Translations under genes and position numbers: made by a program
Part shown: one piece after another, positions 11,905 through 31,987 of the stretch
Layout: the number at the start of each line of letters is the position of its first letter
How positions within the stretch are numbered: the stretch's first letter is position 1
The notes under the pieces: generated by a model
What the model saw: only the letters and a program-made list of their open reading frames with translations
Told to the model about the DNA's origin: nothing
The model's database searches: none
NCBI GenBank assembly: GCA_030615165.1
Contig: JAUWZW010000003.1
Span: forward strand, 1-37,333
DNA length: 37,333 nt
Direction: 5' to 3'
Source: Candidatus Aenigmatarchaeota archaeon
Lineage (GTDB): Archaea; Aenigmatarchaeota; Aenigmatarchaeia; QMZP01

Positions 11905-12049
11905 TTTGTGCCTCCTTTCGTTTATCCATTTACGGGTTTTCATTATCCATTACCGGGTTTTTTGCTTAAACCCAAGAATTTATGACTGTTTATGGTCGTA
12001 TGACTGTTTTTGTTTATCGTTCATGAAGGCTATAACAAACCTACATATG

Positions 12050-12550
12050 CTAAAGAAGGGGCTGAAAGTGTATAATACATGAAGCTAATACACAGCCTAC
12101 CAAACCTACCAAAGTTATAACCCAGAAAACCAGCCATGTGCCCAACATAAGATCGGTGCCTACACTTTTGAATGGGTACTGAGATTTCCAATTCGCGGCC
12201 TGGTATTTCCCCTGTATGTTGACTTCCTCGATCCTTGACATGAACACGCTAAGGGCCGAGACAACCACCACGAAAGCCCCGCCCCAAAGGAACATGCCTT
12301 TAAAGCCGATGATCTTGAGGCCGAGGACATCAGTGATCAGCATAAGCAGGGCGCCTGCGACGATGAAACGCAGGATGAAACCAAAGCCCCAGATGAACAG
12401 GTTTTTTCTTGCTTGTCTTATTTCCGGTTTACTGCAGTATATGTTCAATACGTCCAATGCCTTCGGCAGCGATTTCAGCAGCTTCACGCGCCAGTTGAAT
12501 GCCGCGACGCCGAGAACGATATACGTTATTATCATGCTGTTCATTATCAT
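12050..12550 (-). CDS. small membrane protein, member 3 of the tandem paralog array
   Basis: FNWRVKLLKSLPKALDVLNI...RKNLFIWGFGFILRFIVAGALLMLITDVLGLKI is near-identical to the corresponding stretch of 13268..13717. The RBS is AAAGGAGAG. Confidence 0.55.
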   Translation of the reverse strand: MIMNSMIITYIVLGVAAFNWRVKLLKSLPKALDVLNIYCSKPEIRQARKNLFIWGFGFILRFIVAGALLMLITDVLGLKIIGFKGMFLWGGAFVVVVSALSVFMSRIEEVNIQGKYQAANWKSQYPFKSVGTDLMLGTWLVFWVITLVGLVGCVLASCIIHFQPLL

Positions 12551-12663
12551 TTGTGTCTCTCCTTTCTTGCATTCATTTCACATTTCTTTTATTGCTTTTC
12601 ATTAATTATCCGCAGGTTGGAGATGTTACCAACTGCGTCCTGATTTACTATTAGTTCACCATT

Positions 12664-13140
12664 CTACTGAAGTATTCTGAGTCTGGACACCACCAGGAGA
12701 ACCACCCAGATGTCAAGTAACACAATCCAATATTTCCACCAATTGGCCGAAATGTCGGTCTCGGCAGTATCCGCGGCGTATTTATGCTGGATGTACACTT
12801 CTTCAGAGACTGAAAAGACCAAGCTCAATATCCAGTAAACGAGTATGTAAGCTGGCCCCAGGGCAAGCAAGCCGCTCCATGTATGGATCCGGGCTCGGCC
12901 GACGAAATGCATGAACAGTGATGTTAATACAAGAATGACGCAAAACCTGCCAACGAATCCGGCGAACCATATCAACCTGTTCTTGTCCGTCATCACCTTC
13001 AGTTCCATAAGACACCTACTACAATTATCATCGTATCGACATTTCACATCAGTATCGCAGTTCAGCTTTTTCAACAGCGTCGTGCGCCAGTTGAAACATC
13101 CGGCAAGGGAAATTATGTATATTGCATACAGGTTATCCAT
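12664..13140 (-). CDS. small membrane protein, member 2 of the paralog array, with a Cys-rich insert
   Basis: It starts MDNLYAIYIIS behind the conserved RBS. The insert is CDTDVKCRYDDNCSRC. It also has IWFAGFVGRFCVILVL. Confidence 0.5.
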   Translation of the reverse strand: MDNLYAIYIISLAGCFNWRTTLLKKLNCDTDVKCRYDDNCSRCLMELKVMTDKNRLIWFAGFVGRFCVILVLTSLFMHFVGRARIHTWSGLLALGPAYILVYWILSLVFSVSEEVYIQHKYAADTAETDISANWWKYWIVLLDIWVVLLVVSRLRILQ

Positions 13141-13267
13141 TTTGTGCCTCCTTTCATTATGCCGAAAAATGCTAATGCTGAATAGCATATACAGTTAAAC
13201 CAATAATTGAAACTATTATCCAGATTACCAGAATTATGAACCATGTCCGTGCACGAATACGGATTGC

Positions 13268-13717
13268 TTAAAGATGACTAACTGTCCACTGAAAAAATCC
13301 TAACCGGTTAAGAACATATATCACAACTATAATGAACCAGATAATCAGAAGTACACTCCATGAAGCCGCCCATACATTAAAAGCTACTCCCTCGGGTGTT
13401 GACAGCTTTATGTTAATGAGTGAAACAACCACCACGAAAGCCCCACCCCAAATGAGCAGGCTCCACACGCTGGTTATTTTGAGGCCCAAGACGTCAGTGA
13501 TAAGCATAAGCAGGGCGCCTACGATGATGAAACGCAGGATGAAACCAAAGCCCCAGACGAACAGGTTTTTTCTTGCACGTCTTCTTTCCAGTTTGCCGGG
13601 ATTAGGGCCGCATATGTTCAATACGTCCAATGCCTTCGGCAGTGATTTCAGCAGCTTAACGTGCCAGTTGAATCCCGAGACAAGAGAAATAATATATATT
13701 GCATACAGGTTGTCCAT
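13268..13717 (-). CDS. small membrane protein, member 1 of the paralog array
   Basis: MDNLYAIYIISLVSGFNWHVKLLKSLPKALDVLNI... with 4 TM helices. Conserved RBS upstream. Confidence 0.55.
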   Translation of the reverse strand: MDNLYAIYIISLVSGFNWHVKLLKSLPKALDVLNICGPNPGKLERRRARKNLFVWGFGFILRFIIVGALLMLITDVLGLKITSVWSLLIWGGAFVVVVSLINIKLSTPEGVAFNVWAASWSVLLIIWFIIVVIYVLNRLGFFQWTVSHL

Positions 13718-13833: not shown

Positions 13834-14276
13834 CTTATGTCATCAAGACAGCTTTCCAGACCAAAATTTAATCTGTCTGGCAATAGCTGTTAAGGTGTGT
13901 ATCTAGGAGCATGATATCAGCACGAAACGGTTTGAAACTGGCTAGCTACAATGAGGTCAATAACAATAGATTAACAAAAAAACTTTATATAGCTATCCAC
14001 CTTCCTTTTCAAAAAATCAGTAAAGTTAATGTTTCGGTTAATCGCAAAAAACAGAAAACCCGCTCCCGCAAACATAATTCCTATTTATGTTCATTTGTGT
14101 CAGGCAGGTTGGGTTCGGGCAAGTGCTGGATGGCTTGTCCCTGCTGCTTCCATTTTCTGTACTCTTCAGTATTGCGGAAGGAATTGATTTCTGTCGCGTT
14201 CGGGTCTTTTGTGATAGCCATTTCGACCTCACTATGAAGCAGAATTGAAAGGTCATCCCTGTAATAAATTGTGTCA

Positions 14277-14567
14277 TTAAAGCGCTTTGGCATTGACTTC
14301 TATTCTGACCAAATAACCCGGCACTTCAAAGACTATCTCTTTATGAAATGGCACAGAATTCGGGTCTATCAGAAAGGTTTCTCCCCGGCCCCCCAGGGTC
14401 CTTGCACCTTCATACATATGCCATCCCAAAGAGAATTCAATTCTTGCTAGTGCTGGTGCATCTGGATTCTGCTTGAATGTATTATTTTCCGGTGTGAGTA
14501 TAATTATTAATAAAAATACACACATGGAAAATACTAACCAAATTATTATCCTTTTTTTCCTTGACAT
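14277..14567 (-). CDS. small secreted or membrane-anchored protein
   Basis: 96 aa. The N-terminal signal-like helix is MSRKKRIIIWLVFSMCVFLLIIIL. It is tightly linked (3 nt) downstream of the LuxR gene. Confidence 0.4.
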   Translation of the reverse strand: MSRKKRIIIWLVFSMCVFLLIIILTPENNTFKQNPDAPALARIEFSLGWHMYEGARTLGGRGETFLIDPNSVPFHKEIVFEVPGYLVRIEVNAKAL

Positions 14568-14570
14568 GGG

Positions 14571-14900
14571 TTAATCCTCCTTATTAAGAAAATCTGCAAC
14601 TTCCATGAATCTCAGAAGCAGAGAAACTTTATTTGTCACCCGGGTTTTTGCAGAAATATGCTTTATATGTTGTTTTACGGTATTGACGCTTCTGTCCAAC
14701 TTCTTAGCAATATCCTTATTGGTTAACCCCTTGCATACAAGTTTCGCCACCTGCAATTGCCGGGGACTCAGATGAAAATGTTTCTGGAGACTTATCCACT
14801 GTTCATTATCAAAAACCTCAAAATCCGGCAGTTTGTTAGGGTCATCCTGGATATTGTTTTGGCGTGCCATTTTTGACATCACCTCCTTTCTTTCAATCAT
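14571..14900 (-). CDS. LuxR/GerE-type HTH transcription regulator
   Basis: The C-terminal region LSPRQLQVAKLVCKGLTNKDIAKKLDRSVNTVKQHIKHISAKTRVTNKVSLL matches the LuxR-type HTH signature. Confidence 0.7.
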   Translation of the reverse strand: MIERKEVMSKMARQNNIQDDPNKLPDFEVFDNEQWISLQKHFHLSPRQLQVAKLVCKGLTNKDIAKKLDRSVNTVKQHIKHISAKTRVTNKVSLLLRFMEVADFLNKED

Positions 14901-14903
14901 CTC

Positions 14904-15482
14904 CTAATAGATAATCGCTGTTGCTTCTTCAATCTTTTTGATAACTTCAGCCACATCGGCAGAATCGGATATGCAGCCGTCAAAGCCCTTCTGCAGCAGG
15001 GCGGCTGACTCGGAATCGTTCAACTCGCCCGCAAGGGCTATAATCTTGATGGTCTGCAAATCCTCATTGGAACGGATGCTTTTGCATAGGCCTGCTGCAT
15101 CTATGTCTTCAGCCAAGAGGTTGACCAATAGAACATGTGGTGCAAATTTCTGGGCGATTGCACCGGTCTCAAAATCACTATGTGTGGTTTGCACTTCGTA
15201 ATCTGTCTTGGTTCGCAAAGTATCAGCCAGGGCCGAGGCTGCTTTTTCGTTGCTGTTCACTATAAGGACCCGGATATTGCCGATTGGAAGTGTTGGCGCA
15301 GGCATGTTATGCGCTTTCATAAACCGGATCAGCTCTGCTACGGGTATCCTCCTGTCCTTGCTGCCAGGTATCCTGTATCCCTTCATCTGGCCTGTATCAA
15401 ACCACTTTGAGACTGTCCGGGGCGCTACATTGCAGATCCTTGCAACATCGCCTGTTGTCAGTACGTTTTTTCCCTTTGCCAT
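14904..15482 (-). CDS. excisionase/MerR-type HTH domain fused to a degenerate (pseudo-)receiver domain
   Basis: The likely start is MAKGKNVLTTGDVARICNVAPRTVSKWF... at 15482, with GGAGGT 8 nt upstream. The HTH is excisionase-family. A CheY-like fold follows (VLIVNSNEK...VLLVNLLAEDIDAAG...IKIIALAG), but the acidic pocket is altered (NS, N, A). Confidence 0.65.
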   Translation of the reverse strand: MAKGKNVLTTGDVARICNVAPRTVSKWFDTGQMKGYRIPGSKDRRIPVAELIRFMKAHNMPAPTLPIGNIRVLIVNSNEKAASALADTLRTKTDYEVQTTHSDFETGAIAQKFAPHVLLVNLLAEDIDAAGLCKSIRSNEDLQTIKIIALAGELNDSESAALLQKGFDGCISDSADVAEVIKKIEEATAIIY

Positions 15483-15682
15483 TGGTATACCTCCTTTCAA
15501 ACACCAAGCAGTACACAAGGCTGGGTTTCAGGTTTTGTGTTTGTCTCCGGTCAATGCTATTCCGCATAGAATAATAACAAATAATACGGGCGCAATAAAC
15601 ATGGCCAGAAAAAGTATCATCGGGTCTGATGTTTTTTATTTTCCATTTCTTGCCCTTTCGCAGAAATTTACCTAACAAAAAC

Positions 15683-15727
15683 AGCCATGCAAGAAGTCTT
15701 TGCTGACTTTCGTCCCTGCATGGTCAC
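15683..15727. repeat. hairpin-forming element B (CCATGCA...AAGTC tttgcT GACTT...TGCATGG), paralogous to element A
   Basis: It lies about 165 nt upstream of the HTH-REC gene. The sequence covaries with element A and preserves both stems. Confidence 0.5.
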
Positions 15728-15858
15728 GATTTAACTTCAAAGCCAAGCTGCCAGAACTGAATCTTCTATGGTTCAGTTATGACGCGGAAATCGCTGTTGG
15801 CTGTAATGTATGTATCAAGGGAACATGAATACTACTGCTTCATAGTTAATAGAAAATT

Positions 15859-16905
15859 TTATATACTTGTGAAATGGTATTTACTCAACTCGGTCCTGAA
15901 CCTCAGAAATCCAGCGACACCGCCCAGGCCCAGGAACTTCTCGCCTGATTCGTGCTCGGAGGAGATTATCACAATCGAGCCGCGCATCTTCTCGACCTGG
16001 TCCATCAGGCCTTCAAACCCCTTGACTTTCTCCTCGGAAACCAGAAGGGTTTCCACAGCGCCCATCCTGGCAGCGCTCTTTGTTTCCTTATCCCCGTAAA
16101 CAGCCTTCCCGTCCTTCCCTATTTCAACAAGAAGCCTCTCGACAAGCCCTGTCTCCTTTGCAACCCTTGTCTCTTTCAGGATTTTGTTCGCTGACCTCTT
16201 TATGACCTCCTGTATCCCTGTCTTCCCTGTGCTTGAGGCATATTCCAATGCAAGCTTTCCTGCGAGCTTTGGGTTTGCCTTATCTATGAACTCCAGAAGG
16301 TTCTCCTTTTCAAACCCTGGACCGGCAATAACCATTGCCTGGCAGCCCTTCTGCTTCTCCAGGACTGATAAAATATCCCTGTAGTAATCGCTCCTGTCCT
16401 CCCTGCCCTTTACCTTTTTGGCAGAAACAGAGCCCTTCATCTCAACACCTGATTCCTTAAGAACTGCAAAATCTGCCTGCTCCCTGTCAAGGATGCATAT
16501 GAACAGGAGGGGCTGCTTTACCATTGCCCTCTTTATCCTTTCAAGCTGGTATTGCTTCCATCCCTGTTCCTTTTTGATAGTCAGCACAGACCAGGGCTCT
16601 ATATTCAGGGTGTGGTAGGAGCTCAGCTTTATGTCCTCAGGGCCTGAAACAATCTTTCCCCTGAGGCGAAGGATTCCTGCCTGCCTCTCAACATCTTCCA
16701 GGTTTATCGTAAGTGTCATTGGCTTTCTCTCACCTTCCAGGATTTCCTTTCCCCTCTTGATTGCCTTCTTGCGCAGGGTCCTGGAGGTAACCAAATCCCC
16801 CTTCTCAAGTATCTTCTCCAGATGCCAGAGGTCATCCGGTGTTTCAACCCTGAACTTTATCTTGCCTTCCTTCCTGTCCTGGTGGATGATTTTCATAACC
16901 TTCAC
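15859..16905 (-). CDS. pelA: Pelota/Dom34 mRNA surveillance protein (eRF1-like)
   Basis: 348 aa starting MKVMKIIHQDRKEGKIKFRVETPDDLWHLEKIL... It has the eRF1 domain 1-3 architecture typical of archaeal Pelota. Confidence 0.85.
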   Translation of the reverse strand: MKVMKIIHQDRKEGKIKFRVETPDDLWHLEKILEKGDLVTSRTLRKKAIKRGKEILEGERKPMTLTINLEDVERQAGILRLRGKIVSGPEDIKLSSYHTLNIEPWSVLTIKKEQGWKQYQLERIKRAMVKQPLLFICILDREQADFAVLKESGVEMKGSVSAKKVKGREDRSDYYRDILSVLEKQKGCQAMVIAGPGFEKENLLEFIDKANPKLAGKLALEYASSTGKTGIQEVIKRSANKILKETRVAKETGLVERLLVEIGKDGKAVYGDKETKSAARMGAVETLLVSEEKVKGFEGLMDQVEKMRGSIVIISSEHESGEKFLGLGGVAGFLRFRTELSKYHFTSI

Positions 16906-17023
16906 CTTGTGAACTTTTTACGGATGCTCAGACTTCGTCTGAGCCAACCCCTTTGCTGCCTTGTTTATTATTTATAAAACTGGATTAATATCATTTTATA
17001 GATTTTGAGCAGGTGCGGAACCT

Positions 17024-17338
17024 GTGCTTATAAATATAACTGTTTTATCTTGGTTTATGGAATATTTTACCCAGTTCTTTGTTGAAGGCGATAAACCTGG
17101 AGAATATATTGGATGGGGAAGGGTACAGTTTAAAGCAATAAGCCGAGGGTATGCAGAAGGAAAACTCCAGAAACTCTTATCTATGGTTCAAGAAAGATTC
17201 CCAGAATTGTTAGTAGGATTAGATAATCATGAGAAATATGAAGGCAAACCAATAAAACTGGGAACTGATGTGTATGAGTCAGAAGACCAGATTACACCTT
17301 TAAGTGAGCCAGACTTGGGAAAAATAGAATTGCCCTAA
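17024..17338 (+). CDS. small hypothetical protein, probably leaderless starting at MEYFTQ (17057)
   Basis: The TATA-like element CTTATAAATATA (17028-17038) lies about 20-25 nt upstream of the ATG at 17057, an archaeal leaderless arrangement. The longer track ORF would start inside the promoter. Confidence 0.4.
   Translation: MLINITVLSWFMEYFTQFFVEGDKPGEYIGWGRVQFKAISRGYAEGKLQKLLSMVQERFPELLVGLDNHEKYEGKPIKLGTDVYESEDQITPLSEPDLGKIELP
17028..17038 (+). promoter_or_regulatory. archaeal TATA box for the 17057 gene; related TTATTTATAAAACT elements at 16966-16980 and 17362-17377
   Basis: These are AT-rich TATA-like boxes 20-30 nt upstream of ATG codons with no intervening SD. The motif TTATTTATAAAACT occurs twice in the divergent Pelota / 17393 promoter region. 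Confidence 0.4.
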
Positions 17339-17392
17339 ACCCTGCGTCAACCCCCTTCTTTTATTTATAAAACTATTGTTAAATACTATTAT

Positions 17393-18529
17393 ATGAGGCA
17401 GCTGAAAGGTGTTGAGGATTTCATATATGTGCTTGCAGTAGCGCTGATTCTGATACTTGTTTTTGCAGCCATATCCGCACTATGGCCTGTAGGGCCGGGC
17501 GGAGGTGTTGTCGGTAATGTTTCCATTGCAGAGTTCTCACTGGGAGGTGTTGGTTATTCAGGGGATTATGAAGCAAGCTCTATTACACTGGGCTCTTTCA
17601 GTGTCGGGGAGACCCAGACAGAGAATCTCAGGACCGCTCCGCAGCTAAGCCTTTCATCAAGCCTGCTCGGTTCGAAAAAAGAGACCTTCAGCATAAATGT
17701 GCTCAGCGCGTACCAGGATTCCCTGAGGGATGTTCTGATAAGCTTTGATGTTTTTGAGACAAACCAGTATGGGGATTTGGTTGTGAAATGGAACGGGAAT
17801 GAGTTCTACAGGGGCAGGGCGAGCCCGAGGGATTACAGCATTGTTATTGACAAGAGCAGCGTGAAGAGCATGAACACGCTGGAGATTTACTGCGACGGGC
17901 CGGGGCTAATATTCTGGGCATCCACTGTATATACGCTCAGGAACTTCAATGTTGACCTGGAATACGGGCCATCAAAGATATTTGCGTTCACCCTCTCCCA
18001 GGGAGAGATAGAGGCATGGGACAGGGGAGAGGTGAGTTTTTACGGCTTTGGAACAGGGGACAAACTGACCCTTGAGGTTAATGATGTTGAGATATATGAG
18101 CAGGCCCCTTCCGGTTCCACAACCATTACGTTCAACTACACGTCTGCCCCGCTCAGGGTCGGGCAGAACCTTCTAACCATTAAAACAGATACAGGTGTCT
18201 TTACCCTGCAGAATGCGGTGTTCAAGATATTCCTTCTCACAAACCTTGTTGCAAAGCAGAGGACATTCGAGCTGGATTCTGACCAGTATGCCAGGCTGGC
18301 AGAGCAGGGTTATGCAGGTGTAATAGAGTTCAAGGTGGATTCCATTGAAAGGTCTGGTGTTCTGGATGTGGAATTGAACAGGAATGACCTGGCAGTGCCC
18401 CTTCCGCGGACAGGATGGAACAACATCACGTTCACTGATGCAGAGGCGAGTATAGGGACCAACACACTCGAATTCTCAGGAAACGGCTACTGGGACATAA
18501 GCGAAGTAAAGGTCAGGCTGGAGAAATAG
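17393..18529 (+). CDS. N-terminally anchored extracellular protein, beta-rich, unknown function
   Basis: 378 aa with one N-terminal TM helix (FIYVLAVALILILVFAAISAL), then a Gly/Thr/Ser-rich beta-like sequence. Confidence 0.55.
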   Translation: MRQLKGVEDFIYVLAVALILILVFAAISALWPVGPGGGVVGNVSIAEFSLGGVGYSGDYEASSITLGSFSVGETQTENLRTAPQLSLSSSLLGSKKETFSINVLSAYQDSLRDVLISFDVFETNQYGDLVVKWNGNEFYRGRASPRDYSIVIDKSSVKSMNTLEIYCDGPGLIFWASTVYTLRNFNVDLEYGPSKIFAFTLSQGEIEAWDRGEVSFYGFGTGDKLTLEVNDVEIYEQAPSGSTTITFNYTSAPLRVGQNLLTIKTDTGVFTLQNAVFKIFLLTNLVAKQRTFELDSDQYARLAEQGYAGVIEFKVDSIERSGVLDVELNRNDLAVPLPRTGWNNITFTDAEASIGTNTLEFSGNGYWDISEVKVRLEK

Positions 18530-18569
18530 GCCCGCTTCTCCTTACACTTGGGATAAAAACGAAACTGGG

Positions 18570-18992
18570 TCAGGAGTTTAGAAGCCTGAGCATTTCCCCT
18601 GGCTTAACAATCTTGATGCCCCTGAATTCTCTAAGATTCAGTATGTGTTTATCATAAGAAACGATATATTCGGCGTTACTGTCAAGTGCAGCATCAAGCA
18701 TGATATTGTCTGCCGGATGCTCTTTTATTACATTAATAACCGATTTTGTATGGATAAGCGTGCTGATTTTCAGAATTGTCCTTATCAAATCCTCTATATT
18801 TTGTTTCCTTTCATCAAGAAAACGCTGGAATTTGGACTCCTTGCTCAACACCGCCGCAATTTCAAGCAGGATATCCCTGGTTATGGTTATTTCAATTCTG
18901 TCCTTTTCCGCTAACTCAATGATTCTGCTGGCTTCCCCTTCCCAGAATATTGCAGAAAGCCAGACATTGCTATCCAGGACCGCTCTTATCAT
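18570..18992 (-). CDS. vapC: PIN-domain ribonuclease toxin (VapC-like)
   Basis: It starts MIRAVLDSNVWLSAIFWEGEAS. The acidic PIN residues are conserved (D at 7, E at 44, D at 100/118). It overlaps the upstream antitoxin by 4 nt. Confidence 0.8.
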   Translation of the reverse strand: MIRAVLDSNVWLSAIFWEGEASRIIELAEKDRIEITITRDILLEIAAVLSKESKFQRFLDERKQNIEDLIRTILKISTLIHTKSVINVIKEHPADNIMLDAALDSNAEYIVSYDKHILNLREFRGIKIVKPGEMLRLLNS

Positions 18993-19261
18993 TTACCAGA
19001 CCTTCTAACCTCTTCTATAAGCACGTCCAACTCTTCCTTTTTGAAACCGGACATTTTTGCTGCCTTTCTAAAGGGCTTCACAGCCTCTCTCCAGGGTTTT
19101 ATCCTTGGCATTTCGATCTTCTTCAGCAGAATCATGTCGTCCTGTGATGTTACTGCAAACGGCGTTCCCTCCTTTAGATGGAGATCCTGCCTTATGTCCT
19201 GGGGTATTACAATCTGGCCCTTTGAGGACAGTTTTGTGAATTCTACCGTCATATTTATCAC
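18989..19261 (-). CDS. vapB: AbrB/SpoVT (MazE-like) swapped-hairpin antitoxin (VapB-like)
   Basis: MINMTVEFTKLSSKGQIVIPQDIRQDLHLKEGTPFAV is a classic SpoVT/AbrB N-terminus. 90 aa. Confidence 0.75.
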   Translation of the reverse strand: MINMTVEFTKLSSKGQIVIPQDIRQDLHLKEGTPFAVTSQDDMILLKKIEMPRIKPWREAVKPFRKAAKMSGFKKEELDVLIEEVRRSGK

Positions 19262-19311
19262 CTGTAAGAATGTAAGATTTGCAGATATTTAAAGCTTTGC
19301 TTTACCTTGAA

Positions 19312-19365
19312 ACGGCACCGGCTACTGGGAAATCAGCGAGGTCAGGGTCAGGCTGGAGAAGTAAG
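19312..19365 (+). pseudogene. remnant 3' gene fragment encoding NGTGYWEISEVRVRLEK*, a diverged copy of the C-terminus of 17393..18529 (NGYWDISEVKVRLEK*)
   Basis: It shows about 85% nucleotide identity over about 50 nt to 18481-18531. An in-frame TGA lies immediately upstream, so only the tail survives. The VapBC module lies between the two copies. Confidence 0.5.
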
Positions 19366-19453
19366 CAGGGTTTTGATAGTCAGTAATACTTAAAAAGCTT
19401 TCCATCAATTATTTATGAGTATAATTCCCACATTTCCCATTCAGGTGAGTTTA

Positions 19454-20377
19454 ATGGAAGTCAGAATACAAAAACCATCGGTTGCATTCACAATAAAGGA
19501 ATTCGAACGTGGTGTTAAACTAAGGTTCGGAAAAAGCAAAGGCATTATTGGACCAGGTCTACATCTTGCAATACCTAGAATCGATGAAGTAAGAATAGTT
19601 GACATAAGGCCGCGGCAGTATGAGGCTTCTTTTGATGTTTTGAGCCAAGACAATTATCCGCTGGCCACGACGGTTGATATAAGGTATAAAATATCAAATG
19701 CTGAGGATGCCGTCGTAAAGGCACCTGAGAATTTTGAAGGTCAGATAGATTTTCTCTTAAAGTCTGAGAGTGGCAAAGAAGCATGTAAGAATATGACAAT
19801 GGACAGTATTCTTAAAAACAGGGATGAACTTGGCAGAAATGTACAAGCTTTTCTGGACGAACATGTAGGTGAATGGGGAATTGATATAGAAACAGTCCAA
19901 GTTAAAGAAGTGGTCCCGCCTTCTGAAGTCCCTGAATTACAAACAGAACTGTACGATGCAAGCATGAAAAGGATAATTGAGCCTGTACGGGCTGGCACTG
20001 AAGCTGAGGTTTATAGAACAAAGGCAGGCGCAAAGCTTGAAATGATGAAACAATATCTCGGGATAATAACTGATGTTGCCGGAGAGCTTGCGAAACAGTA
20101 CGGAGCAAAGGAAGCCAGAGATATCATGTATATTCTTTTCGGCAAGACCTTGGGTTATGAACATCCTGTTACACAGAAAATAAGAACCAAAATGGGAGCA
20201 GAGGGGATGGGCGAAGGGGCAGCAAGTGCTGCAGAAAGCATTGGTGCAGATCCCAAGTATACCTATCTTATGACAACTTTGCAGAACATGAAAGGTATTG
20301 GTATTTTTGATATAAGGTCTTTTGATGACCTTGCTGATTTGGACAAACAATTAAATCAAAAATTATACCCAAAATAA
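19454..20377 (+). CDS. SPFH/band-7 (stomatin/prohibitin-like) domain protein, no TM anchor apparent
   Basis: FERGVKLRFGKSKGIIGPGLHLAIPRIDEVRIVDIRPRQYEASFDVLSQDN...TVDIRYKISNAEDAV fits the SPFH core. The likely start is MEVRIQ, with AGGTGA 6 nt upstream. The track ORF starts at 19415. Confidence 0.7.
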   Translation: MEVRIQKPSVAFTIKEFERGVKLRFGKSKGIIGPGLHLAIPRIDEVRIVDIRPRQYEASFDVLSQDNYPLATTVDIRYKISNAEDAVVKAPENFEGQIDFLLKSESGKEACKNMTMDSILKNRDELGRNVQAFLDEHVGEWGIDIETVQVKEVVPPSEVPELQTELYDASMKRIIEPVRAGTEAEVYRTKAGAKLEMMKQYLGIITDVAGELAKQYGAKEARDIMYILFGKTLGYEHPVTQKIRTKMGAEGMGEGAASAAESIGADPKYTYLMTTLQNMKGIGIFDIRSFDDLADLDKQLNQKLYPK

Positions 20378-20386
20378 GATGATACT

Positions 20387-21157
20387 ATGAACCCAATAGA
20401 CCCTAATGAAATTCTAGGCAGCATGGATTTTTCTGATTTGGATAATTTAGATGAAGTTTCAGATGGCGGAGTCATAATGATGCCTGAAGGTGTAAAAGTG
20501 GCTGAGCCGATTGTGACAAGAGAGGCTGTATTGAAAAAAGTAAAAAGCCAGACAGTTTTGAGAACTAATCATCTTCTTGGTATGCGTTCATGGAGCTATA
20601 ATGAAAGGGGTGGCTATTTAGCGACTCACTTCATAAAGGAAAACGAGAAAAGTTACTGTCTTCCAGTTCCTTCTGGATACGAATATCTTGAACCCATCCT
20701 AGATTATCACCCCTATTCTGTTCGCCATTTTCGAGGGATGGTGCTTATAAGGGATTTACATAATGGTGATCCTGGAAGTGCAAACATTGATAGTAATCCA
20801 GAGCTGAATGGGTTTTCCGAAATGCTTAGTAGAAGAGGGCAATTCGGCGATTTCCTAAAGGGGCGTGGTGATTATGATCAAGGGCATAATCAACATCCAG
20901 TGGCGTGTGCAATCGATATTCTAGACCAACTTGGAAACTATACGAATAGGATTATAAAAAAAGGTAAAACAATTATACGAAAACCAATGGAAAATCTAAG
21001 TCATGACATATGGTACTTCCCTTTATGGGAAGTTCCTATAAAAATATTACCACCTAAAGAAAAAAAATATAACTGGGGAGTAGGTAAACCAGGCCTTGGT
21101 GCTTTCTATTTTGATGGTGTTTTTGGAGTAATGTTTAAGGCACTAAAGAGATATTAA
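20387..21157 (+). CDS. hypothetical protein, paralog A of an unrecognised family
   Basis: 256 aa. Shared with paralog B: an acidic N-terminus LD.LDEV.DGGVIMMPEGVKVA, then EPILDYHPYSV, NPELNGFS, IIRKP, DIWYFPLWEVP, FYFDGVFG. It is 9 nt downstream of the SPFH gene. Confidence 0.6.
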   Translation: MNPIDPNEILGSMDFSDLDNLDEVSDGGVIMMPEGVKVAEPIVTREAVLKKVKSQTVLRTNHLLGMRSWSYNERGGYLATHFIKENEKSYCLPVPSGYEYLEPILDYHPYSVRHFRGMVLIRDLHNGDPGSANIDSNPELNGFSEMLSRRGQFGDFLKGRGDYDQGHNQHPVACAIDILDQLGNYTNRIIKKGKTIIRKPMENLSHDIWYFPLWEVPIKILPPKEKKYNWGVGKPGLGAFYFDGVFGVMFKALKRY

Positions 21158-21178
21158 ATCTTTGTAAGTGGTGACTAT

Positions 21179-22243
21179 ATGAGACATGATGATATTTTAG
21201 GCGGATTGAACATGGAAAGTTTGGATGATTTAGGTGAAGGTGAATACATAGTGATGCCTGAGGGGGTTAAGGTAGCTCCTTATAAGGTCACCGCGGAAGA
21301 AGCAAGGGCTCTTGCACAAAAAGCTGCTGAATCATACAAAGATTCTGATGTATATTTTCATGTTGATCCGGCTGGTAGTGGTTGGGGAGAAGACTTTTTT
21401 GAAGATGGCCCAAGAATGTCCAAAAGATATGAAAATTTGATAAAGACACTCAAGGATAAGATGCCCGCCTTTTTGGAGATTATTGAATCCAAATACAGAA
21501 ACGAGGGACCGTATACTTTCACTGCTGGTTATCTTGGGATAAAACATGTTGATTTCGAGGCTGGTGAGCCAATTCTCGATTATCGCCCGTTATCTGTTTT
21601 TTTAGAGTCGAATCTTCTTCATGTGGAAGATTTGTATACAGGATATCGATATTATTGCAGGGCGACACTGCATCCTGAATTAAATGGTTACTCTAGCATA
21701 CAACCATCAGTTTCTGGGGATGATGAAAATTCTATTCCTTTTTCTATAAGTATGATAATGAATCATGGAAAACCGCTAAGAAAGATAGAAAAATCAGAAA
21801 AAGTTATAATAAGAGAACCCAGAAGAAAGCCTACACGGGGACCAAAAGGTGAAATTTGGTACTTCCCTCTATGGGAAGTGCCAATGGTATCGCACAGAGA
21901 ATTTTTGACTGAGCGGGGGACATACTTCTATCTAAAACGTGGTATTCTTTCCAATAAGTGCACATCGCACGAACACAAGTGGAGAATCCACGTACCTTTC
22001 ATTACCCGAGGTGCGGTATTTTTTGATGGGTTTTCAGGAAAGAAAATATCAAGTGTGTTAGCAGATTCCTTTTTCAATGCTGAAAATCCTCAAGATAATC
22101 AATTTAAATGCTATGCGATTTTGCTTTCGGATAAGAAAGATTTAATAAAAGTAGGATATGCGTATTTGGATTCCTGGCTTAGAAAATGTAGTTTAACAGA
22201 GAAAGAAATAATGAGTATACCAGAACGTATTGAATTTGGTTAA
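21179..22243 (+). CDS. hypothetical protein, paralog B of the same family (longer, C-terminal extension)
   Basis: 354 aa with LDDLGEGEYIVMPEGVKVA, EPILDYRPLSV, HPELNGYS, IIREP, EIWYFPLWEVP, VFFDGFSG. Confidence 0.6.
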   Translation: MRHDDILGGLNMESLDDLGEGEYIVMPEGVKVAPYKVTAEEARALAQKAAESYKDSDVYFHVDPAGSGWGEDFFEDGPRMSKRYENLIKTLKDKMPAFLEIIESKYRNEGPYTFTAGYLGIKHVDFEAGEPILDYRPLSVFLESNLLHVEDLYTGYRYYCRATLHPELNGYSSIQPSVSGDDENSIPFSISMIMNHGKPLRKIEKSEKVIIREPRRKPTRGPKGEIWYFPLWEVPMVSHREFLTERGTYFYLKRGILSNKCTSHEHKWRIHVPFITRGAVFFDGFSGKKISSVLADSFFNAENPQDNQFKCYAILLSDKKDLIKVGYAYLDSWLRKCSLTEKEIMSIPERIEFG

Positions 22244-23177
22244 TCTAATATTAAGTTCACATCGCTGGGGTTCTGATATTTATTCTGCCCAAGCTAATTA
22301 TTTAACAGGTGCTTTAGTGGCAAAAGACAGAATCCTTGAGAACAAGAACTGCCCCAGATGCTGGAACGGCATTCTTTATTCTACGAATATTGTGAGCAAA
22401 AGGAAGCTTGTCTACTACCAGTGTGCATACTGCGGCAGGATGATAACAAGGGGTGTGTTCAGGAAATTGATGGAGAGGATGGAGAAGATAGGAGCAATCG
22501 TGACATCTCATGAAAAGGCTAAGCTGCACAGGAAAAGGATTAGAAAAGCAAGAAAGGAGAAAAAGCCAGGATTCATCGTTGGTGTTGTAAGGGATGTGAA
22601 AAACAAAAAATCCCTTGGAGGGGTTTATGTTTACGTAAGGGGAATAGGCATTGAGGCATTCACCAATTCCTACGGGCAGTATGCATTAAAACCCATTCCC
22701 CCTTCAGAGAATATCACAGTGGAAACATCCAAGCCCGGATACAGGAGGAAGGGAAGGATTCTGAAGAGGGGGATAAAGAGGGGCGAGGTCAGGGAAATAT
22801 ATTTCGGCATAAGGACGTTAAGGGTCAGCAAGACACCCCCTCCGGAGTTCCCCGAACTCAGACCCATATGGGCAAGCCCTGAGGCAAAGAAGGCGCCCCG
22901 CCCGTCAGGCATCCATGGCTTTATCAGGGACAGCAAAGGCAATCCGCTGCAGGGTGCTATAATAACCATCTTTGCCGGGAGAAAGGAATACATAGTCCAG
23001 ACCGATGCAACTGGTCATTACGAGCTGCTCAATGCCCTGCCACCGGGATATTACCATCTCAAGGCAACAGCAGACGGGTTCACATATGACAGGAAAACAG
23101 TCAGGGTGGATTTCATGTTCCTCTCTGCACAGGACTTCAAACTGTTCGTCATGCCGAGGAGAAGCGCGGGCGGCTGA
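22230..23177 (+). CDS. C4 zinc-ribbon protein with two carboxypeptidase-regulatory-like (Cna-B-type) beta-sandwich domains
   Basis: The zinc ribbon is CPRCWNGILYS...YYQCAYCG. The beta domains are GVVRDVKNKKSLGGVYVYVRGIGIEAFTNSYGQYAL and GFIRDSKGNPLQGAIITIFAG...TDATGHYELLNALPPGYYHLKATADGFTYDRKTV. The start is uncertain, because the track ORF overlaps the upstream gene by 14 nt. Confidence 0.55.
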   Translation: MNLVNLILSSHRWGSDIYSAQANYLTGALVAKDRILENKNCPRCWNGILYSTNIVSKRKLVYYQCAYCGRMITRGVFRKLMERMEKIGAIVTSHEKAKLHRKRIRKARKEKKPGFIVGVVRDVKNKKSLGGVYVYVRGIGIEAFTNSYGQYALKPIPPSENITVETSKPGYRRKGRILKRGIKRGEVREIYFGIRTLRVSKTPPPEFPELRPIWASPEAKKAPRPSGIHGFIRDSKGNPLQGAIITIFAGRKEYIVQTDATGHYELLNALPPGYYHLKATADGFTYDRKTVRVDFMFLSAQDFKLFVMPRRSAGG

Positions 23178-23218
23178 TTTTTAAAGAATTTATACATATC
23201 TGGATAATTAATTATTAG

Positions 23219-26200
23219 GTGAAGGATTTGGTCAAGTGTAAGGATGTCGGGGGTCCAGATTGGTGCGATGAGGATGCGGAATATGTAAGGACATATAGGG
23301 AGAGGGGAGGTACTTACGTTGAGCTGAGATGTCCATCCGGTCATTTAAGTGTAATTCCTGTTTCTGAATACAGAGACAAAGTCAGGGCAGAAGAAGCAGC
23401 AAGAAGGATAACCAATGCGGATATTGCGCACTTAAGAATAGAGATAGAATCCATGGTTTTCCAGAGGTTGCCTGAGCGGCAGATGATAAATGAGGTTGTT
23501 CTTTACCTTGAGTCAACAGGAAGGTATGCAGCTTTGAAGAGGGAGGAACTTGAAAAAACAGCACGCAAGCTGTTGGATTTGGTTAGAAAGAAAATAGAAA
23601 AAGAAAGGCTGGGAGCTGTAAGTAAATACATATGTCCTGATTGCAAGAAGGTTTACCTGAATGAAAAGCCCGGGGCGGATGGCAACCTTCTTTATTACTT
23701 CTGCACAGAGTGCAAGAAAAAATTCTCTCCACGTGATATAAAGAGAAGAAAGGTTTATGGGAAGCCTGGTTGGTTGAAGAGGAGAAAGGCATACAGAGAG
23801 AAGAAAAAGGAGTTGAAAGGCACTGCAATCAAAAAGGAGTTGGAGGAGCTTGAAACCTTGGAAGAGAGAAGGCGAGCAGGTTTATTAACTGCTGATGAGC
23901 ATGAAAGGTTGTTAGAATTAAGGGGGACTGCAGCAGAAAAAAGGGAGGAATTCAAGGGTACACTCTTTGGTGCCAAGAAAGAATATAAAACTGGTGTGAG
24001 TGAGCTAAAGGAAAAGGCCAAAGCAGAGAAATGGACCAGGGTAAAATACAAGGAAGAAAAGAGAAAGCTCAAGGAGAAGTACATTAGAAGCAAAAGGGAA
24101 TATAAAGAGAAAGTGGGGAAAGAGAAAGAGAAGAGAAAGGCGCACATAGGAAAGAGGGTAACCGGTTTTATTGAAGATAAATGGGGCAAGGACGTGATGA
24201 AGGCATTTATCGTGATTCTCTTTGCTGCCCTGGGCTTTGCTATCTCAGGTGCTTTTGGAAGCATTTTATTCCTGTTCGGGTTCCTTTCATTGGCTCTTTA
24301 CTACATTTTCCCGAGCCCTGATGAAGAAACCCCGCCCCGGGAGCTGGCGAGACAACTCAAGGAAAACCCCCTGACATGGAGGATGGTGGGGTCAAGGGCC
24401 TTCCTGAGGAATCCCCACACGGTCTGGGGGTTCTTGAAAACAATCTTTAAACTGTCAACATTCATACTGTTCATTTTCGGTGTCTGGTACAGCCCGATGG
24501 TTCCGTTCAAGAATATAGTTTTGATAATACTGTGCTTTGGGGCATACTTCTCGCTCAAGATGACCTATAACACTCATATGCCGCACCAGTTCATAGAATC
24601 CGTGATAAGGTTTGGTCTGCTTGGGGCGTTCTTCATACCGTGGGTTATATTCTACGGGATTTTCCAGTCAGGTCTTCTTGCCCTGCTTGCAATGGCATTC
24701 TTCATGATTCCGCCCATAGCAGAGGACAAGCAGAATACTGAAACCTTTGCAATGTATGAAATGTTTGATAAATTCATATTTTTTGGTTTCATGCTCGTTG
24801 CGCTCATTGCATCCGGGGTTCTGCCTCTTCCATGGTTTGGTGAAGTTGGATGGAAACTTACAGGAACCCTCCAGTGGACATTCCTCTACTTCTGGGTTGT
24901 TTCCTTTGTTGCAGGATTCTTCTCTCCTGCACAGACAAGACCTGCAATGGGTTTCATAATGCTAGGCGCTGCTACCATAATCTACGGCATAGGGCCTGGG
25001 GCGCAGGAGTTCGGGACAGCTTTGCTTGGTCCCTGGTATCCTGTTATACAGAATCTTTTCAGCTCAATTGCAAAGCCGTTTGCTGAAGTATTCGGCCAGT
25101 TTGCAAACACATTCGGCAGTGCCCTGATGCTGCTTGTAAATCCTGTTGGGTATGCGCAGTCTATAATGAACGGAACGTATGCAAGGGATACCACTACAGG
25201 TTTGCAGGGCGCGTACGGCATTGAGATAGAGAGGTTTGAGGTAATGCCCATATACACAGAGAGCCCTTATGTTGTAAGTGTCATGGTTAAGAACAAGGGG
25301 GCGTTTGAGGCAAGGAATGTAATAGTTGCACTTGTCCCGAGCGTTAATGTACCCAGGGAGGAAAAGAGCTGGGTTTGGGGTGTCAAGGAGGCTGTGCTTA
25401 TTATACCGAAAGCTGCTGTGGCAGTTGGAGGTTGGAATCCTCTTAGTATTGAAGTGCACATGCCGTTTCTGAGGCCTAACATAACCATGACAAAGGAAGG
25501 GCTGGGATTTGTTGAAGAGCCTGATACGGACAGGGGCATAACACAGAAATGCATAGATGACAGGCGGTGTGTATTTGCCATAGGCAACATGACAAAGCTG
25601 CAGACAAGCCAGGCAAACTTCTACTCTGATGGTATAATGTGCCCTGCAGTGGTTAATTATGGCTTGATGACAAAGGAAAAGGCGAAAGTGCTCCCGTTCA
25701 TAGGCATGATACAGTATGACTACAACATAAGCTCGAACCTTGAGGTTGAGGCAATGAGCAAGGAGGAATGGGAAAGGCAGGTGGAGGAAATGGAGCTGCA
25801 GCCAAAGTTCAAGAAGCTTACAACCTTCACAAATGCGCCTGTCATGCTCAATCTGGACACACTGGAGCAGCCCATACTGGAGGGCTCACCATTCCATATA
25901 GCCCTGAACATTGTGTCTGCGCACAAGAAGGGGAGGGTAGTGGGCAATGCTACTGTAAGGTTGGAGATACCAACCAACTTCACGAAGGGGAAGGGAGAAG
26001 AAAACCTGCCTCCCTGCGTGCCGGATAAGATCAAACCCAAAATTATAAAGCAAGATGATACAACAACACTTCTCGAATGGAAAGGTCTCACCGAGCCTTA
26101 TGCCATATTCTGCAGCTTCCCTCCTGTGAAGGTTCCTGAAGGTCCTACAATAACATACATGGTAAGGGCTGATGCTAGTTACACATTCAGCAAGTGGGAC

Positions 26201-30114: not shown

Positions 30115-30120
30115 AATACA

Positions 30121-31858: not shown

Positions 31859-31862
31859 AATA

Positions 31863-31987
31863 CACCTCTGTTTCTTCACAAAAAGGTTAACATTTTTGCA
31901 AGCTTCCTCAATAATCTGTTCTGTCTGTTTGGGGGATTTTCTGAATAACCTCCTTTCTACCCGGGACCCATGCCAGGCAGACAGAAA
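31863..31987. repeat. promoter/5'UTR block copy 2
   Basis: See 30121..30245. Confidence 0.7.

What the first reader, a model, noticed from the sequence alone, without database searches (positions are those of the whole stretch)
18481..19365. VapBC (AbrB-PIN) module sandwiched between a gene's 3' end and a diverged remnant of the same 3' end
The last 17 codons of 17393..18529 (…NGYWDISEVKVRLEK*) reappear about 830 bp downstream as NGTGYWEISEVRVRLEK*, preceded by an in-frame stop. The toxin-antitoxin pair on the opposite strand lies between them. This looks like a toxin-antitoxin cassette insertion that displaced or replaced most of a paralogous gene, or inserted with a long, now diverged, target duplication.
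Basis: seen in the sequence. Interest (0 to 1): 0.55.

Follow-up and report, generated by a model that had tools for sequence, protein, structure and literature searches.

The report
Toxin-antitoxin cassette flanked by gene-end echo
A small VapBC toxin-antitoxin cassette in a DPANN archaeon sits just after a conserved gene and is followed by a second, diverged copy of that gene's last 17 codons, and four related contigs show the same layout at three different genes, which points to recombination at gene ends as the way these selfish cassettes enter genomes.

Summary
The last 51-53 nt of gene 17393..18529 recur 835 nt downstream at 19314..19364(66), at 82-83% identity. The repeat keeps the reading frame and the stop codon, and the window holds only these two copies. 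An intact AbrB-PIN_3 VapBC pair with its own promoter lies between them.

The closest relatives (L001, L003) have the same gene but no cassette and no echo. None of about 25 syntenic Aenigmatarchaeota/DPANN loci has a tandem paralog.

The layout recurs. A gene's 3' end, then a toxin-type cargo, then an echo of that end appears at the orthologous gene in L005 (two cassettes in tandem), at Pelota in L013 (Fic) and L025 (another VapBC), and at PolB in L035 (a homologous VapBC). L023 is a precise empty site for L013.

Differences between the echoes and the live ends are mostly synonymous (23 synonymous versus 11 non-synonymous codons). Some replacements are residues that other lineages' orthologs carry. 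The echoes therefore look like alleles of functional genes, not decayed target duplications.

Best reading: the cassette integrated by recombination between the resident gene end and incoming DNA that carried a diverged copy of that end. The most likely form is a Campbell-type single crossover of a circular cassette. The recombination machinery was not identified.

I rate this a new variant of a known kind, of moderate interest.

The parts
17393..18529 (+). Target gene ('geneA'): a DPANN-specific membrane-anchored protein with an N-terminal TM helix and three beta-sandwich domains. It is intact.
   Evidence: ORF. There are 41 homologs, all DPANN and all full length. No Pfam or NCBIfam hit. AlphaFold model with pLDDT 88.5 and weak BcsB/CBM-like fold hits. 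Conserved synteny Pelota | geneA | orf315 | large protein.
18479..18531 (+). Live copy of the repeat: the last 17 codons of geneA (G-N-G-Y-W-D-I-S-E-V-K-V-R-L-E-K-stop) plus 2 nt. It encodes the last two beta strands.
   Evidence: It matches the ends of L001 and L003 at 47/51 and 46/51.
18532..18569 (.). Spacer of about 38 nt between the repeat and the vapC stop codon. It resembles no relative's downstream DNA.
18570..18992 (-). vapC: PIN_3-family toxin, 140 aa. The conserved acidic residues D7, E44 and D95 are present.
   Evidence: Pfam PIN_3 6e-16, TIGR00305 5e-19. 132 homologs, the best at 67% identity, mostly DPANN. Invariant columns in alignment A3.
18989..19261 (-). vapB: AbrB/SpoVT/MazE-type antitoxin, 90 aa from the GTG at 19261 or 87 aa from the ATG at 19252. 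It overlaps vapC by 4 nt.
   Evidence: Pfam MazE_antitoxin 2.7e-8, TIGR01439 1.2e-11.
19262..19307 (-). The cassette's own promoter and operator region: a TATA-like TTTAAATA (19286-19293) and two TCTTACA direct repeats (19263-19269 and 19271-19277, minus strand). Homologous VapBC cassettes in other contigs conserve this region.
   Evidence: Read from the sequence. Promoter function is inferred.
19308..19310 (+). TGA stop in the echo's reading frame, just upstream of the echo. The echo is therefore not part of a longer ORF.
19314..19366 (+). Echo: a diverged second copy of the geneA 3' end (G-T-G-Y-W-E-I-S-E-V-R-V-R-L-E-K-TAA; stop at 19362-19364). The longest block identical to the live copy is 15 nt (GGTCAGGCTGGAGAA) at its right end.
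   Evidence: It matches L001 and L003 at 41/51 and 39/51, so it is more distant from them than the live end is.
19415..22243 (+). Second lineage-specific insert at the same site: an SPFH/Band_7 gene (19415..20377) and two paralogous genes of unknown function (20387..21157 and 21179..22243). It is of foreign composition and is probably a separate, earlier acquisition.
   Evidence: Absent from all relatives. Band_7 2.5e-28. GC3 is 0.29-0.34 here versus 0.51-0.62 in core genes. SPFH relatives lie next to a tyrosine recombinase in L028 and next to a paralog of orf256/354 in L029.
22230..23177 (+). orf315 (CarboxypepD_reg domains): the ancestral downstream neighbour of geneA. It marks the far side of the variable site.
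   Evidence: Pfam result. It follows geneA directly in L004/L019, L006 and L014.

Best explanation
The VapBC pair is a compact, self-contained selfish cassette of about 0.78 kb, running from its promoter/operator to the vapC stop. It entered the chromosome by recombination inside the last ~50 nt of geneA. The partners were the resident gene end and incoming DNA that carried, beside the cassette, a diverged copy of the same gene end taken from an earlier host lineage.

I think the most likely form is a single (Campbell-type) crossover between the chromosome and a circular cassette-plus-gene-end molecule. That leaves geneA intact, puts the cassette directly after it, and leaves the second allelic copy (the echo) on the far side. 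The same direct repeats could later excise the cassette as a circle that again carries one gene-end copy, ready to home to the orthologous gene in another cell. Conserved coding 3' ends (geneA, Pelota, PolB) would serve as portable landing pads, and toxin-antitoxin addiction would hold the insert in place.

Shown: the repeat; the intact cassette; empty sites in relatives; recurrence at three genes in five contigs, including a tandem array; and allele-like divergence of the echoes.

Inferred: the circular intermediate, the use of homologous rather than site-specific recombination, and which of the two copies came in with the cassette.
For: 1. Insertion. L001 and L003 align to the window up to the geneA stop codon and lack the cassette and echo. 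Synteny in about 25 loci shows geneA followed by orf315 or the large protein, never by VapBC.

2. Recurrence. An unbiased scan of 395 kb of related contigs tested the last 24 nt of every ORF against its downstream DNA. A reversed-query control gave 0 hits. The scan and a blastn-short follow-up found echoes only in these places:
- window geneA;
- L005 geneA ortholog, twice;
- L013 Pelota, 75-78 nt;
- L025 Pelota, 36 nt;
- L035 PolB, 24 nt.
The only other hits were short exact words (15-25 nt, E 5e-8 to 6e-4) and matches between paralogous genes in the window.

3. Cargo. Five of the six cargoes carry a recognised toxin or toxin-antitoxin domain:
- window: AbrB-PIN_3;
- L035: a homologous VapBC;
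- L005 cassette 1: MNT+HEPN;
- L005 cassette 2: a wHTH gene plus an overlapping 217-aa gene, two-gene TA-like layout, family unknown;
- L013: Fic/Doc;
- L025: VAPB_antitox+PIN.

4. Precise empty site. In L023 the Pelota end is followed directly by DNA 73% identical to what follows the L013 echo.

5. Allele-like divergence. Across the six pairs there are 39 nt differences, 24 of them at third codon positions, giving 23 synonymous versus 11 non-synonymous codons. Pure decay gives P < 3e-4. 'Neutral echo plus constrained live gene' gives P = 2e-4 to 1e-3, even with strongly biased mutation. Echo-specific residues match real orthologs: T, E and R for the window; T and F shared with L007 for the L005 middle echo; K, S and TAG shared with L023 for L013.

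6. Homology-guided crossover. In the window the echo is the more foreign copy, and the longest identical block (15 nt) lies at the right end of the repeat. In L013 the echo is the native-like copy, and the longest block (21 nt) lies at the left end. A Campbell crossover at the longest identity predicts exactly this. The backbone identity to L001 is about the same on both sides of the island, so the echo does not come from the resident backbone.

7. Short echoes. All echoes are short (24-132 nt) and abut the cargo tightly. L005 shows tandem accretion.
Against: - No circular form, excision junction or within-population presence/absence polymorphism was observed.
- The nearest VapC relative is only 67% identical, so neither the same cassette elsewhere nor a donor lineage could be found.
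- Homologies of 24-50 nt at about 83% identity are short for classical homologous recombination.
- The assignment of 'native' versus 'incoming' copy rests on 51-78 nt and on two or three relatives.
- Only 2 of 7 examined contexts of this VapBC family have an echo.
- The origin of the first gene-end capture is unexplained.
- The SPFH island at the same site has no echo of its own.
Confidence: 0.5

Rival explanations
1. Homology-facilitated illegitimate recombination. Linear DNA from a related lineage, carrying geneA-3'-part plus VapBC, was anchored by homologous recombination inside geneA. Its other end was joined illegitimately to the resident chromosome about 50 nt upstream of the resident stop codon. 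The resident gene end was left behind as the echo.
For: This explains the allele-like, mostly synonymous divergence. It also explains native-like echoes that continue into native downstream DNA, as in L013/L023. The mechanism is established in bacteria (PMC3240628).
Against: It predicts that the echo is always the resident allele, yet the window echo is further from L001/L003 than the live end is. It predicts broadly scattered junctions, yet all six echoes are 24-132 nt long. geneA shows no mosaic break against L001/L003. The tandem array with a repeated intergenic module in L005 is awkward to explain this way.
Confidence: 0.2
2. Site-specific integration by a tyrosine (or other) recombinase supplied in trans. 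The gene end is an att site, and the VapBC unit is an integrase-less, cis-mobilizable remnant or satellite, like CIMEs next to ICESt1/ICESt3 at the 3' end of fda.
For: Direct repeats made of a target gene's 3' end, tandem accretion (L005) and precise empty sites are the hallmarks of such elements (PMC3234194). A relative of the neighbouring SPFH gene lies beside a Phage_integrase gene in L028.
Against: No integrase occurs in the cassette, in the 3.7-kb island or in the other echo-flanked cargoes. Three unrelated target genes share no common core sequence. The two copies appear to have exchanged at opposite ends of the repeat in the window and in L013. The repeats are 82-87% identical rather than sharing a long identical core. 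No attC-like inverted repeats are present.
Confidence: 0.15
3. Insertion with a long staggered-cut or repair-generated target-site duplication. The two copies were identical at first and drifted apart in place.
For: It is the simplest geometry. The cargo lies in either orientation relative to the target gene (window and L025 antisense; L035, L005 and L013 sense). In L025 the duplication stops just before the stop codon.
Against: The differences are concentrated in synonymous positions, and the window and L005 echoes are GC-enriched relative to the live ends. The decay model is rejected. L001 and L003 share the live-end states, so all 9 window differences would have to be changes in a neutral echo, yet 7 of the 9 are at third positions (binomial P about 0.008, my calculation). 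Echo residues match other lineages' orthologs. No known transposition system makes duplications of 24 to 132 nt.
Confidence: 0.08
4. The echo is the last remnant of a tandem paralog of geneA, most of which was deleted or overwritten by the cassette.
For: Only the similarity itself supports this.
Against: No relative has two copies. Similarity begins abruptly 51 nt before the stop, just after an in-frame TGA. The same short-echo pattern occurs at Pelota and PolB, which are single-copy housekeeping genes.
Confidence: 0.03

Closest known systems
Genomic islands and ICE/CIME elements integrated in the 3' end of protein-coding genes (ICESt1/ICESt3 and CIMEs at fda, PMC3234194; SGI1 at trmE, PMC6531882/PMC8409611 abstracts)
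   Same: The insert follows an intact gene and is bracketed by direct repeats made of that gene's 3' end. Relatives show empty sites. Tandem accretion at the same site occurs in L005.
   Different: No integrase or any other mobility gene is present. The element is only about 0.8 kb and carries just a toxin-antitoxin pair. The repeats are 82-87% identical with allele-like, mostly synonymous differences, rather than sharing a long identical core. At least three unrelated target genes are used. The host is a DPANN archaeon.
Toxin-antitoxin 'islets' that spread by homologous recombination at flanking core genes (discussed for Photorhabdus, PMC13617665)
   Same: Small TA-only inserts without mobile-element genes lie between conserved genes, and host recombination is proposed as the vehicle.
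   Different: That model is a double crossover in both flanks and leaves no duplication. Here a short gene-end duplication is left behind, which implies a single crossover or a one-sided event. That paper reports duplicated palindromes (res-like sites), not gene-end echoes.
Homology-facilitated illegitimate recombination (PMC3240628)
   Same: Foreign DNA enters next to a homologous anchor and can leave partial duplications of the anchor region.
   Different: See the rival explanations. The echo lengths and the direction of the native/foreign assignment fit it less well.
Integron gene cassettes, which are often TA modules
   Same: Small, promoter-proximal, single-operon cassettes can stack in arrays at one site.
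   Different: No attC-like imperfect inverted repeats are present, and there is no IntI. The repeats are host coding sequence.
VapBC type II toxin-antitoxin systems (AbrB/SpoVT antitoxin plus PIN toxin)
   Same: The cargo is a standard member: domain hits, the 4-nt gene overlap, the conserved acidic PIN residues and the repeated operator-like motif in the promoter all fit.
   Different: Nothing unusual in the proteins themselves. The closest relative is 67% identical.

Membership tests
VapBC type II toxin-antitoxin module | PIN-domain toxin with conserved acidic active-site residues | tested here: met
   PIN_3 6.3e-16, PIN 2.6e-5, TIGR00305 5.4e-19. D7, E44 and D95 are invariant in an alignment of 23 homologs.
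VapBC type II toxin-antitoxin module | Small DNA-binding antitoxin gene immediately upstream, translationally coupled to the toxin gene | tested here: met
   MazE_antitoxin 2.7e-8 and the AbrB-family TIGR01439 1.2e-11. vapB 18989..19261 overlaps vapC 18570..18992 by 4 nt.
VapBC type II toxin-antitoxin module | Toxicity neutralised by the antitoxin; RNase activity | not testable with these tools
   This needs expression and kill-rescue assays.
Integrase-mediated integrative element at a gene 3' end (ICE/IME/GI) | Direct repeats (attL/attR) derived from the target gene's 3' end | tested here: met
   18479-18531 versus 19314-19366. The same is seen in L005, L013, L025 and L035.
Integrase-mediated integrative element at a gene 3' end (ICE/IME/GI) | Element-encoded site-specific recombinase | tested here: not met
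   No recombinase domain in any ORF between 18530 and 23177, nor in the echo-flanked cargoes of L005, L013 and L025. A recombinase acting in trans cannot be excluded.
Integrase-mediated integrative element at a gene 3' end (ICE/IME/GI) | Empty site in related genomes | tested here: met
   L001 and L003 for the window. L023 for L013, with contiguous downstream homology.
Integrase-mediated integrative element at a gene 3' end (ICE/IME/GI) | Identical core at a fixed crossover position | tested here: inconclusive
   The longest identical blocks are 10-38 nt and lie at different ends of the repeat in different cases.
Integron cassette | attC recombination site (imperfect inverted repeats) at the cassette boundary, with an IntI/attI platform | tested here: not met
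   No inverted repeats at either boundary of the window cassette. No integrase in the window region examined.
Transposon/IS insertion with target-site duplication | Short duplication of fixed length that is identical at birth, terminal inverted repeats, and a transposase | tested here: not met
   The duplications range from 24 to 132 nt. Their divergence is coding-like. No terminal inverted repeats and no transposase.
Campbell-type (single-crossover) integration of a circular cassette carrying gene-end homology (proposed) | Direct repeats that are hybrids of two diverged alleles of the same segment | tested here: met
   Synonymous-biased differences. Echo residues match other lineages' orthologs.
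Campbell-type (single-crossover) integration of a circular cassette carrying gene-end homology (proposed) | Existence of the excised circle, and reversibility | not testable with these tools
   This needs raw reads or PCR across the predicted circle junction.

The most novel reading that the evidence does not exclude
In DPANN archaea, and perhaps more widely, toxin-antitoxin and other toxin-type cassettes form a class of minimal, recombinase-less mobile elements. Each carries a short mimic of the 3' end of a conserved host gene. Each uses that mimic to home, by host recombination, to the orthologous gene in new lineages. The cassettes stack in arrays, and each insertion leaves an allelic 'echo' of the gene end. 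This would give a concrete mechanism for the long-unexplained horizontal mobility of chromosomal TA modules.
Probability: 0.3. Interest if true: 0.75.

Novelty: new variant of a known kind. Interest (0 to 1): 0.55.

Why it matters
Chromosomal toxin-antitoxin modules are known to move between genomes, yet they usually carry no mobility genes, and how they insert is largely unknown.

This locus and its five counterparts give a sequence-level footprint of the insertion event. The footprint is a short duplicated gene end whose two copies differ the way alleles of a functional gene differ. It implies recombination between diverged DNA molecules at conserved gene termini.

The footprint also makes the question testable, by searching metagenomes for echoes, circles and empty sites. 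In addition, it marks the 3' ends of Pelota, PolB and a DPANN-specific surface protein as recurrent landing sites in organisms with very small genomes.

If the pattern reflects nothing more than occasional recombination accidents, the finding is a tidy but ordinary example of a TA islet at a variable hotspot.

Tried and rejected
- **Exact-protein look-up of geneA.** It found nothing.
- **Alignment-based locus searches with 26 sequences.** They failed for lack of conserved words. A 9-sequence alignment worked.
- **Third copy of the repeat, or an echo closing the SPFH island.** None found.
- **Close relatives of the cassette, to find a donor or a second insertion site.** The best VapC is 67% identical. 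SPFH relatives lie on contigs of at most 4.3 kb.
- **Viral-contig scans with SPFH, with VapC and with a VapC alignment.** No confirmed hits.
- **Mosaic test of geneA against L001 and L003.** No breakpoint. The last 57 nt are simply the most conserved part.
- **Second contig with the identical L005 protein, hoping for a presence/absence polymorphism.** L056 carries the same array, and the L057 contig ends 220 nt into the first cassette.
- **tRNA genes, Rfam families and attC-like hairpins at the cassette borders.** None.
- **A sigma-70 promoter and intrinsic-terminator scan.** It is uninformative for an archaeon.
- **Echoes in further contexts of this VapBC family (L030, L032, L036, L046, L058).** None.
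- **Literature searches.** I found no description of gene-end echoes flanking TA cassettes. Pandey & Gerdes 2005 is not held in the library.
- **Rejected explanations.** Assembly artefact, because the copies are only 82-87% identical and the pattern recurs in independent assemblies. Paralog remnant. Low-complexity repeat.
Full report
**1. The observation**

The window is a contig of a DPANN archaeon. The homologs of its genes come from Aenigmatarchaeota and Nanoarchaeota metagenome bins.

Gene 17393..18529 (+, 378 aa, here 'geneA') ends ...FSGNGYWDISEVKVRLEK*. The repeat finder reports 18479-18531 and 19314-19366 as a 53-nt direct repeat at 83% identity, 835 nt apart. In the frame of the downstream copy the sequence reads TGA-N-G-T-G-Y-W-E-I-S-E-V-R-V-R-L-E-K-TAA.

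Against the whole window the pair has a blastn-short E-value of 2e-7. There is no third copy at the DNA or the peptide level. The repeat is real, it is specific, and it coincides exactly with the end of the reading frame.

Two overlapping genes lie between the copies on the minus strand:
- a PIN_3 toxin, 18570..18992 (PIN_3 6e-16; TIGR00305 5e-19);
- an AbrB/MazE-type antitoxin, 18989..19261.

About 45 nt upstream of vapB holds a TATA-like TTTAAATA and two TCTTACA repeats. The same promoter/operator module occurs in front of homologous VapBC pairs in L030, L035 and L058. The cassette therefore appears self-contained, from promoter to toxin stop, within about 0.78 kb.

**2. It is an insertion at a variable site**

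The closest relative, L001 (geneA 87% aa; about 85% nt over most of the shared backbone), aligns with the window up to the geneA stop codon. It then continues with the large downstream gene that starts at 23219 in the window. L003 (79% aa) also ends its homology at the stop codon and continues with an unrelated gene.

Across about 25 loci the order Pelota(-) | geneA(+) | [orf315] | large protein is conserved. None of them contains VapBC, the SPFH gene, orf256 or orf354. So 18530..22229 is lineage-specific.

That stretch is heterogeneous in composition:

| Segment | GC3 |
|---|---|
| Core genes | 0.51-0.62 |
| VapBC | 0.46-0.52 |
| SPFH-orf256-orf354 | 0.29-0.34 |

The echo itself has G or C at 15 of 17 third positions (read from the sequence). 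The echo therefore did not arrive from the low-GC source of the SPFH island.

No locus has a second geneA copy, so the 'overwritten paralog' idea has no support.

**3. The architecture recurs**

I scanned all fetched contigs (395 kb). For every ORF, I searched for its last 24 nt, stop included, in the DNA 60-4000 nt downstream. A reversed-query control gave no hits. A blastn-short version followed. Apart from short exact words (15-25 nt, E 5e-8 to 6e-4) and matches between paralogous genes in the window, the hits were as follows.

| Locus | Target gene | Echo | Cargo |
|---|---|---|---|
| window | geneA | 51-53 nt | AbrB-PIN_3 VapBC |
| L005 | geneA ortholog (48% aa) | two echoes | two cassettes (below) |
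| L013 | Pelota | 75-78 nt | Fic/Doc gene |
| L025 | Pelota | 36 nt | VAPB_antitox + PIN |
| L035 | PolB | 24 nt | VapBC homologous to the window's (64% aa) |

- **L005.** The first echo-bounded cassette is MNT+HEPN. The second is a wHTH gene plus an overlapping gene of unknown family. The first repeat unit extends about 75 nt past the stop codon and includes a hairpin.
- **L025.** The pair is antisense to Pelota, and the echo lies directly upstream of the vapB promoter. This is the same geometry as in the window.
- **L035.** The echo encodes the identical peptide QKRLHEF*, with four synonymous nucleotide changes.

Five of these six events lie in contigs fetched for geneA, not for toxins. Five of the six cargoes carry a recognised toxin or TA domain, and the sixth has only a TA-like two-gene layout.

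L023, a relative of L013, is a precise empty site. Its single Pelota end is followed directly by DNA 73% identical to what follows the L013 echo.

**4. The echoes look like alleles, not decayed copies**

Over the six pairs there are 39 nucleotide differences. Twenty-four are at third codon positions, and 23 changed codons are synonymous against 11 non-synonymous.

Simulations reject random decay (P < 3e-4). They also reject the expected mixture of a neutrally decaying echo and a constrained live gene, with P = 2e-4 to 1e-3 for the synonymous fraction, even when G/C sites are made 3-6 times more mutable. The echoes are not AT-enriched overall, and those of the window and L005 are GC-enriched.

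The replacement residues are ones found in functional orthologs:
- T, E and R for the window echo;
- T and F, shared with L007, for the L005 middle echo;
- K and S, plus the TAG stop codon, shared with L023, for the L013 echo.

For the window alone, L001 and L003 share the live-end states. An in-place duplication would therefore need all nine changes to have occurred in the echo, yet seven are at third positions (binomial P about 0.008, my calculation).

Most of the divergence thus arose while both versions were coding. The two copies come from different functional alleles that recombination brought together.

**5. Which copy came in, and how**

In the window the live end is closer to L001/L003 (47 and 46 of 51) than the echo is (41 and 39 of 51). 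Backbone identity to L001 is about the same on both sides of the island. The echo is therefore probably the incoming copy. In L013 the echo shares residues and the stop codon with L023 and runs on into native downstream DNA, so there it is probably the resident copy.

A single crossover between a circle (cassette plus gene-end segment) and the chromosome gives both outcomes, depending on where in the repeat the exchange occurs. In the window the longest identical block (15 nt) is at the right end of the repeat. In L013 the longest block (21 nt) is at the left end. That is where such a crossover would have to lie in each case. This is post hoc and rests on short sequences.

All echoes are short (24-132 nt) and abut the cargo. 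L005 shows two cassettes stacked with a repeated gene-end-plus-hairpin module. These features fit repeated integration at a short portable homology, or an att-like site, better than random illegitimate joining.

I found no recombinase in or near any of the cassettes and no attC-like structure. The window has no tRNA gene, and the region 16800-23300 gave no Rfam hit.

The three target genes share no common sequence, which argues against a single site-specific enzyme. An integrase acting in trans remains possible. A relative of the neighbouring SPFH gene sits beside a tyrosine recombinase in L028.

**6. Comparison with known systems**

The cargo is an ordinary VapBC module. The integration footprint resembles genomic islands and cis-mobilizable elements that sit in the 3' end of protein-coding genes and accrete in tandem. 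ICESt1/ICESt3 at fda are examples (PMC3234194). The differences are that this element has no recombinase, is under 1 kb, carries only a TA pair, and has repeats that differ like alleles.

A 2026 study of Photorhabdus proposes that TA islets without mobility genes spread by homologous recombination at flanking core genes (PMC13617665). That is a double-crossover model and leaves no duplication.

Homology-facilitated illegitimate recombination (PMC3240628) could also leave a displaced gene end, and I keep it as the main rival.

My literature searches found no description of gene-end echoes flanking TA cassettes. The search is limited to open-access full text.

**7. Verdict**

The best-supported account is integration by recombination at the gene end with DNA carrying a diverged copy of that end. 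Its most likely form is a Campbell-type crossover of a circular cassette (confidence about 0.5 for this specific form). I put about 0.85 on the broader claim that two alleles of the gene end were brought together by recombination rather than duplicated in place.

The recurrence at three genes, nearly always with toxin-type cargo, is the most interesting aspect and deserves a genome-wide survey. I rate it a new variant of a known kind.

Noticed in passing
window 16982-17360: A 380-nt segment with a 104-aa ORF (17024..17338, GC 0.38, no family hit) lies between the divergent starts of Pelota and geneA. It is absent from L001, where the two genes are almost adjacent.
   Followed up: partly
window 13999-15858 and Pelota 3' end (15859-15900): About 1.9 kb downstream of Pelota is absent from L001. 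It holds a GerE-type HTH gene (14571..14900) and an HTH_17 plus receiver-domain gene (14904..15518). The window's Pelota carries 12 residues after the conserved FLRF motif, against 4 in L001, apparently through a 5-nt indel. No echo of the Pelota end was detected here.
   Followed up: partly
L001 6886-6937 (minus strand): A 26-nt unit (GAGCAATAGATTAAATTAGATTAAT-T/A) occurs twice in tandem. The first unit contains Pelota's last two codons and its stop codon. This is a gene-end echo with no cargo and could be a footprint of insertion or excision at this hotspot.
   Followed up: no
window 19415-22243; L028, L029: The SPFH/Band_7 gene and two paralogous genes of unknown function (both have an N-terminal ...MPEGVKVA... 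and an IWYFPLWEVP motif) form a low-GC3 island (0.29-0.34). Relatives are rare and lie on short contigs. In L029, SPFH is followed by a paralog of orf256/354. In L028, SPFH lies beside a tyrosine recombinase.
   Followed up: partly
window 23219-24169 versus L001 9279-9965: The first ~313 residues of the 1132-aa protein do not align with the L001 ortholog, although the remainder is 82% identical. L001 also lacks orf315. The variable zone therefore extends into the 5' part of this gene.
   Followed up: no
window 17393-18529: geneA is predicted with confidence (pLDDT 88.5) as a TM helix followed by three beta-sandwich domains. It has only weak BcsB/carbohydrate-binding-like fold matches. It forms a conserved DPANN cluster with a CarboxypepD_reg protein and a protein of more than 1000 aa, next to Pelota. 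The function is unknown.
   Followed up: partly
L005 9180-9272 and 10838-10889: The intergenic module repeated after the first two gene-end copies contains a perfect hairpin (GTTTCACT-N4-AGTGAAAC). In the first copy it is followed by two tandem 20-nt palindromic units (TATTTTCTATTTATAGAAAA). These may be operator, terminator or recombination signals.
   Followed up: no
L057 (contig end at 9372): A second assembly with the identical geneA ortholog breaks 220 nt after the gene, inside the first cassette. This would be expected if strains differ in cassette content, but it is not evidence of that.
   Followed up: no
window 29209-30123 and 31037-31879 (minus strand); 11446-13717: Two neighbouring genes are paralogs, with segments 83-91% identical. 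These produced false 'echo' hits. A run of four small ORFs of similar size (149-174 aa) at 11446-13717 also looks like a paralog array, with repeated matches in L001.
   Followed up: no
L032 3218-5888; L058 1238-3917: Homologous VapBC cassettes are wedged between archease and rtcB (L032) and directly after the threonyl-tRNA synthetase gene (L058). Neither has a detectable echo. This family habitually sits at the 3' ends of housekeeping genes.
   Followed up: partly
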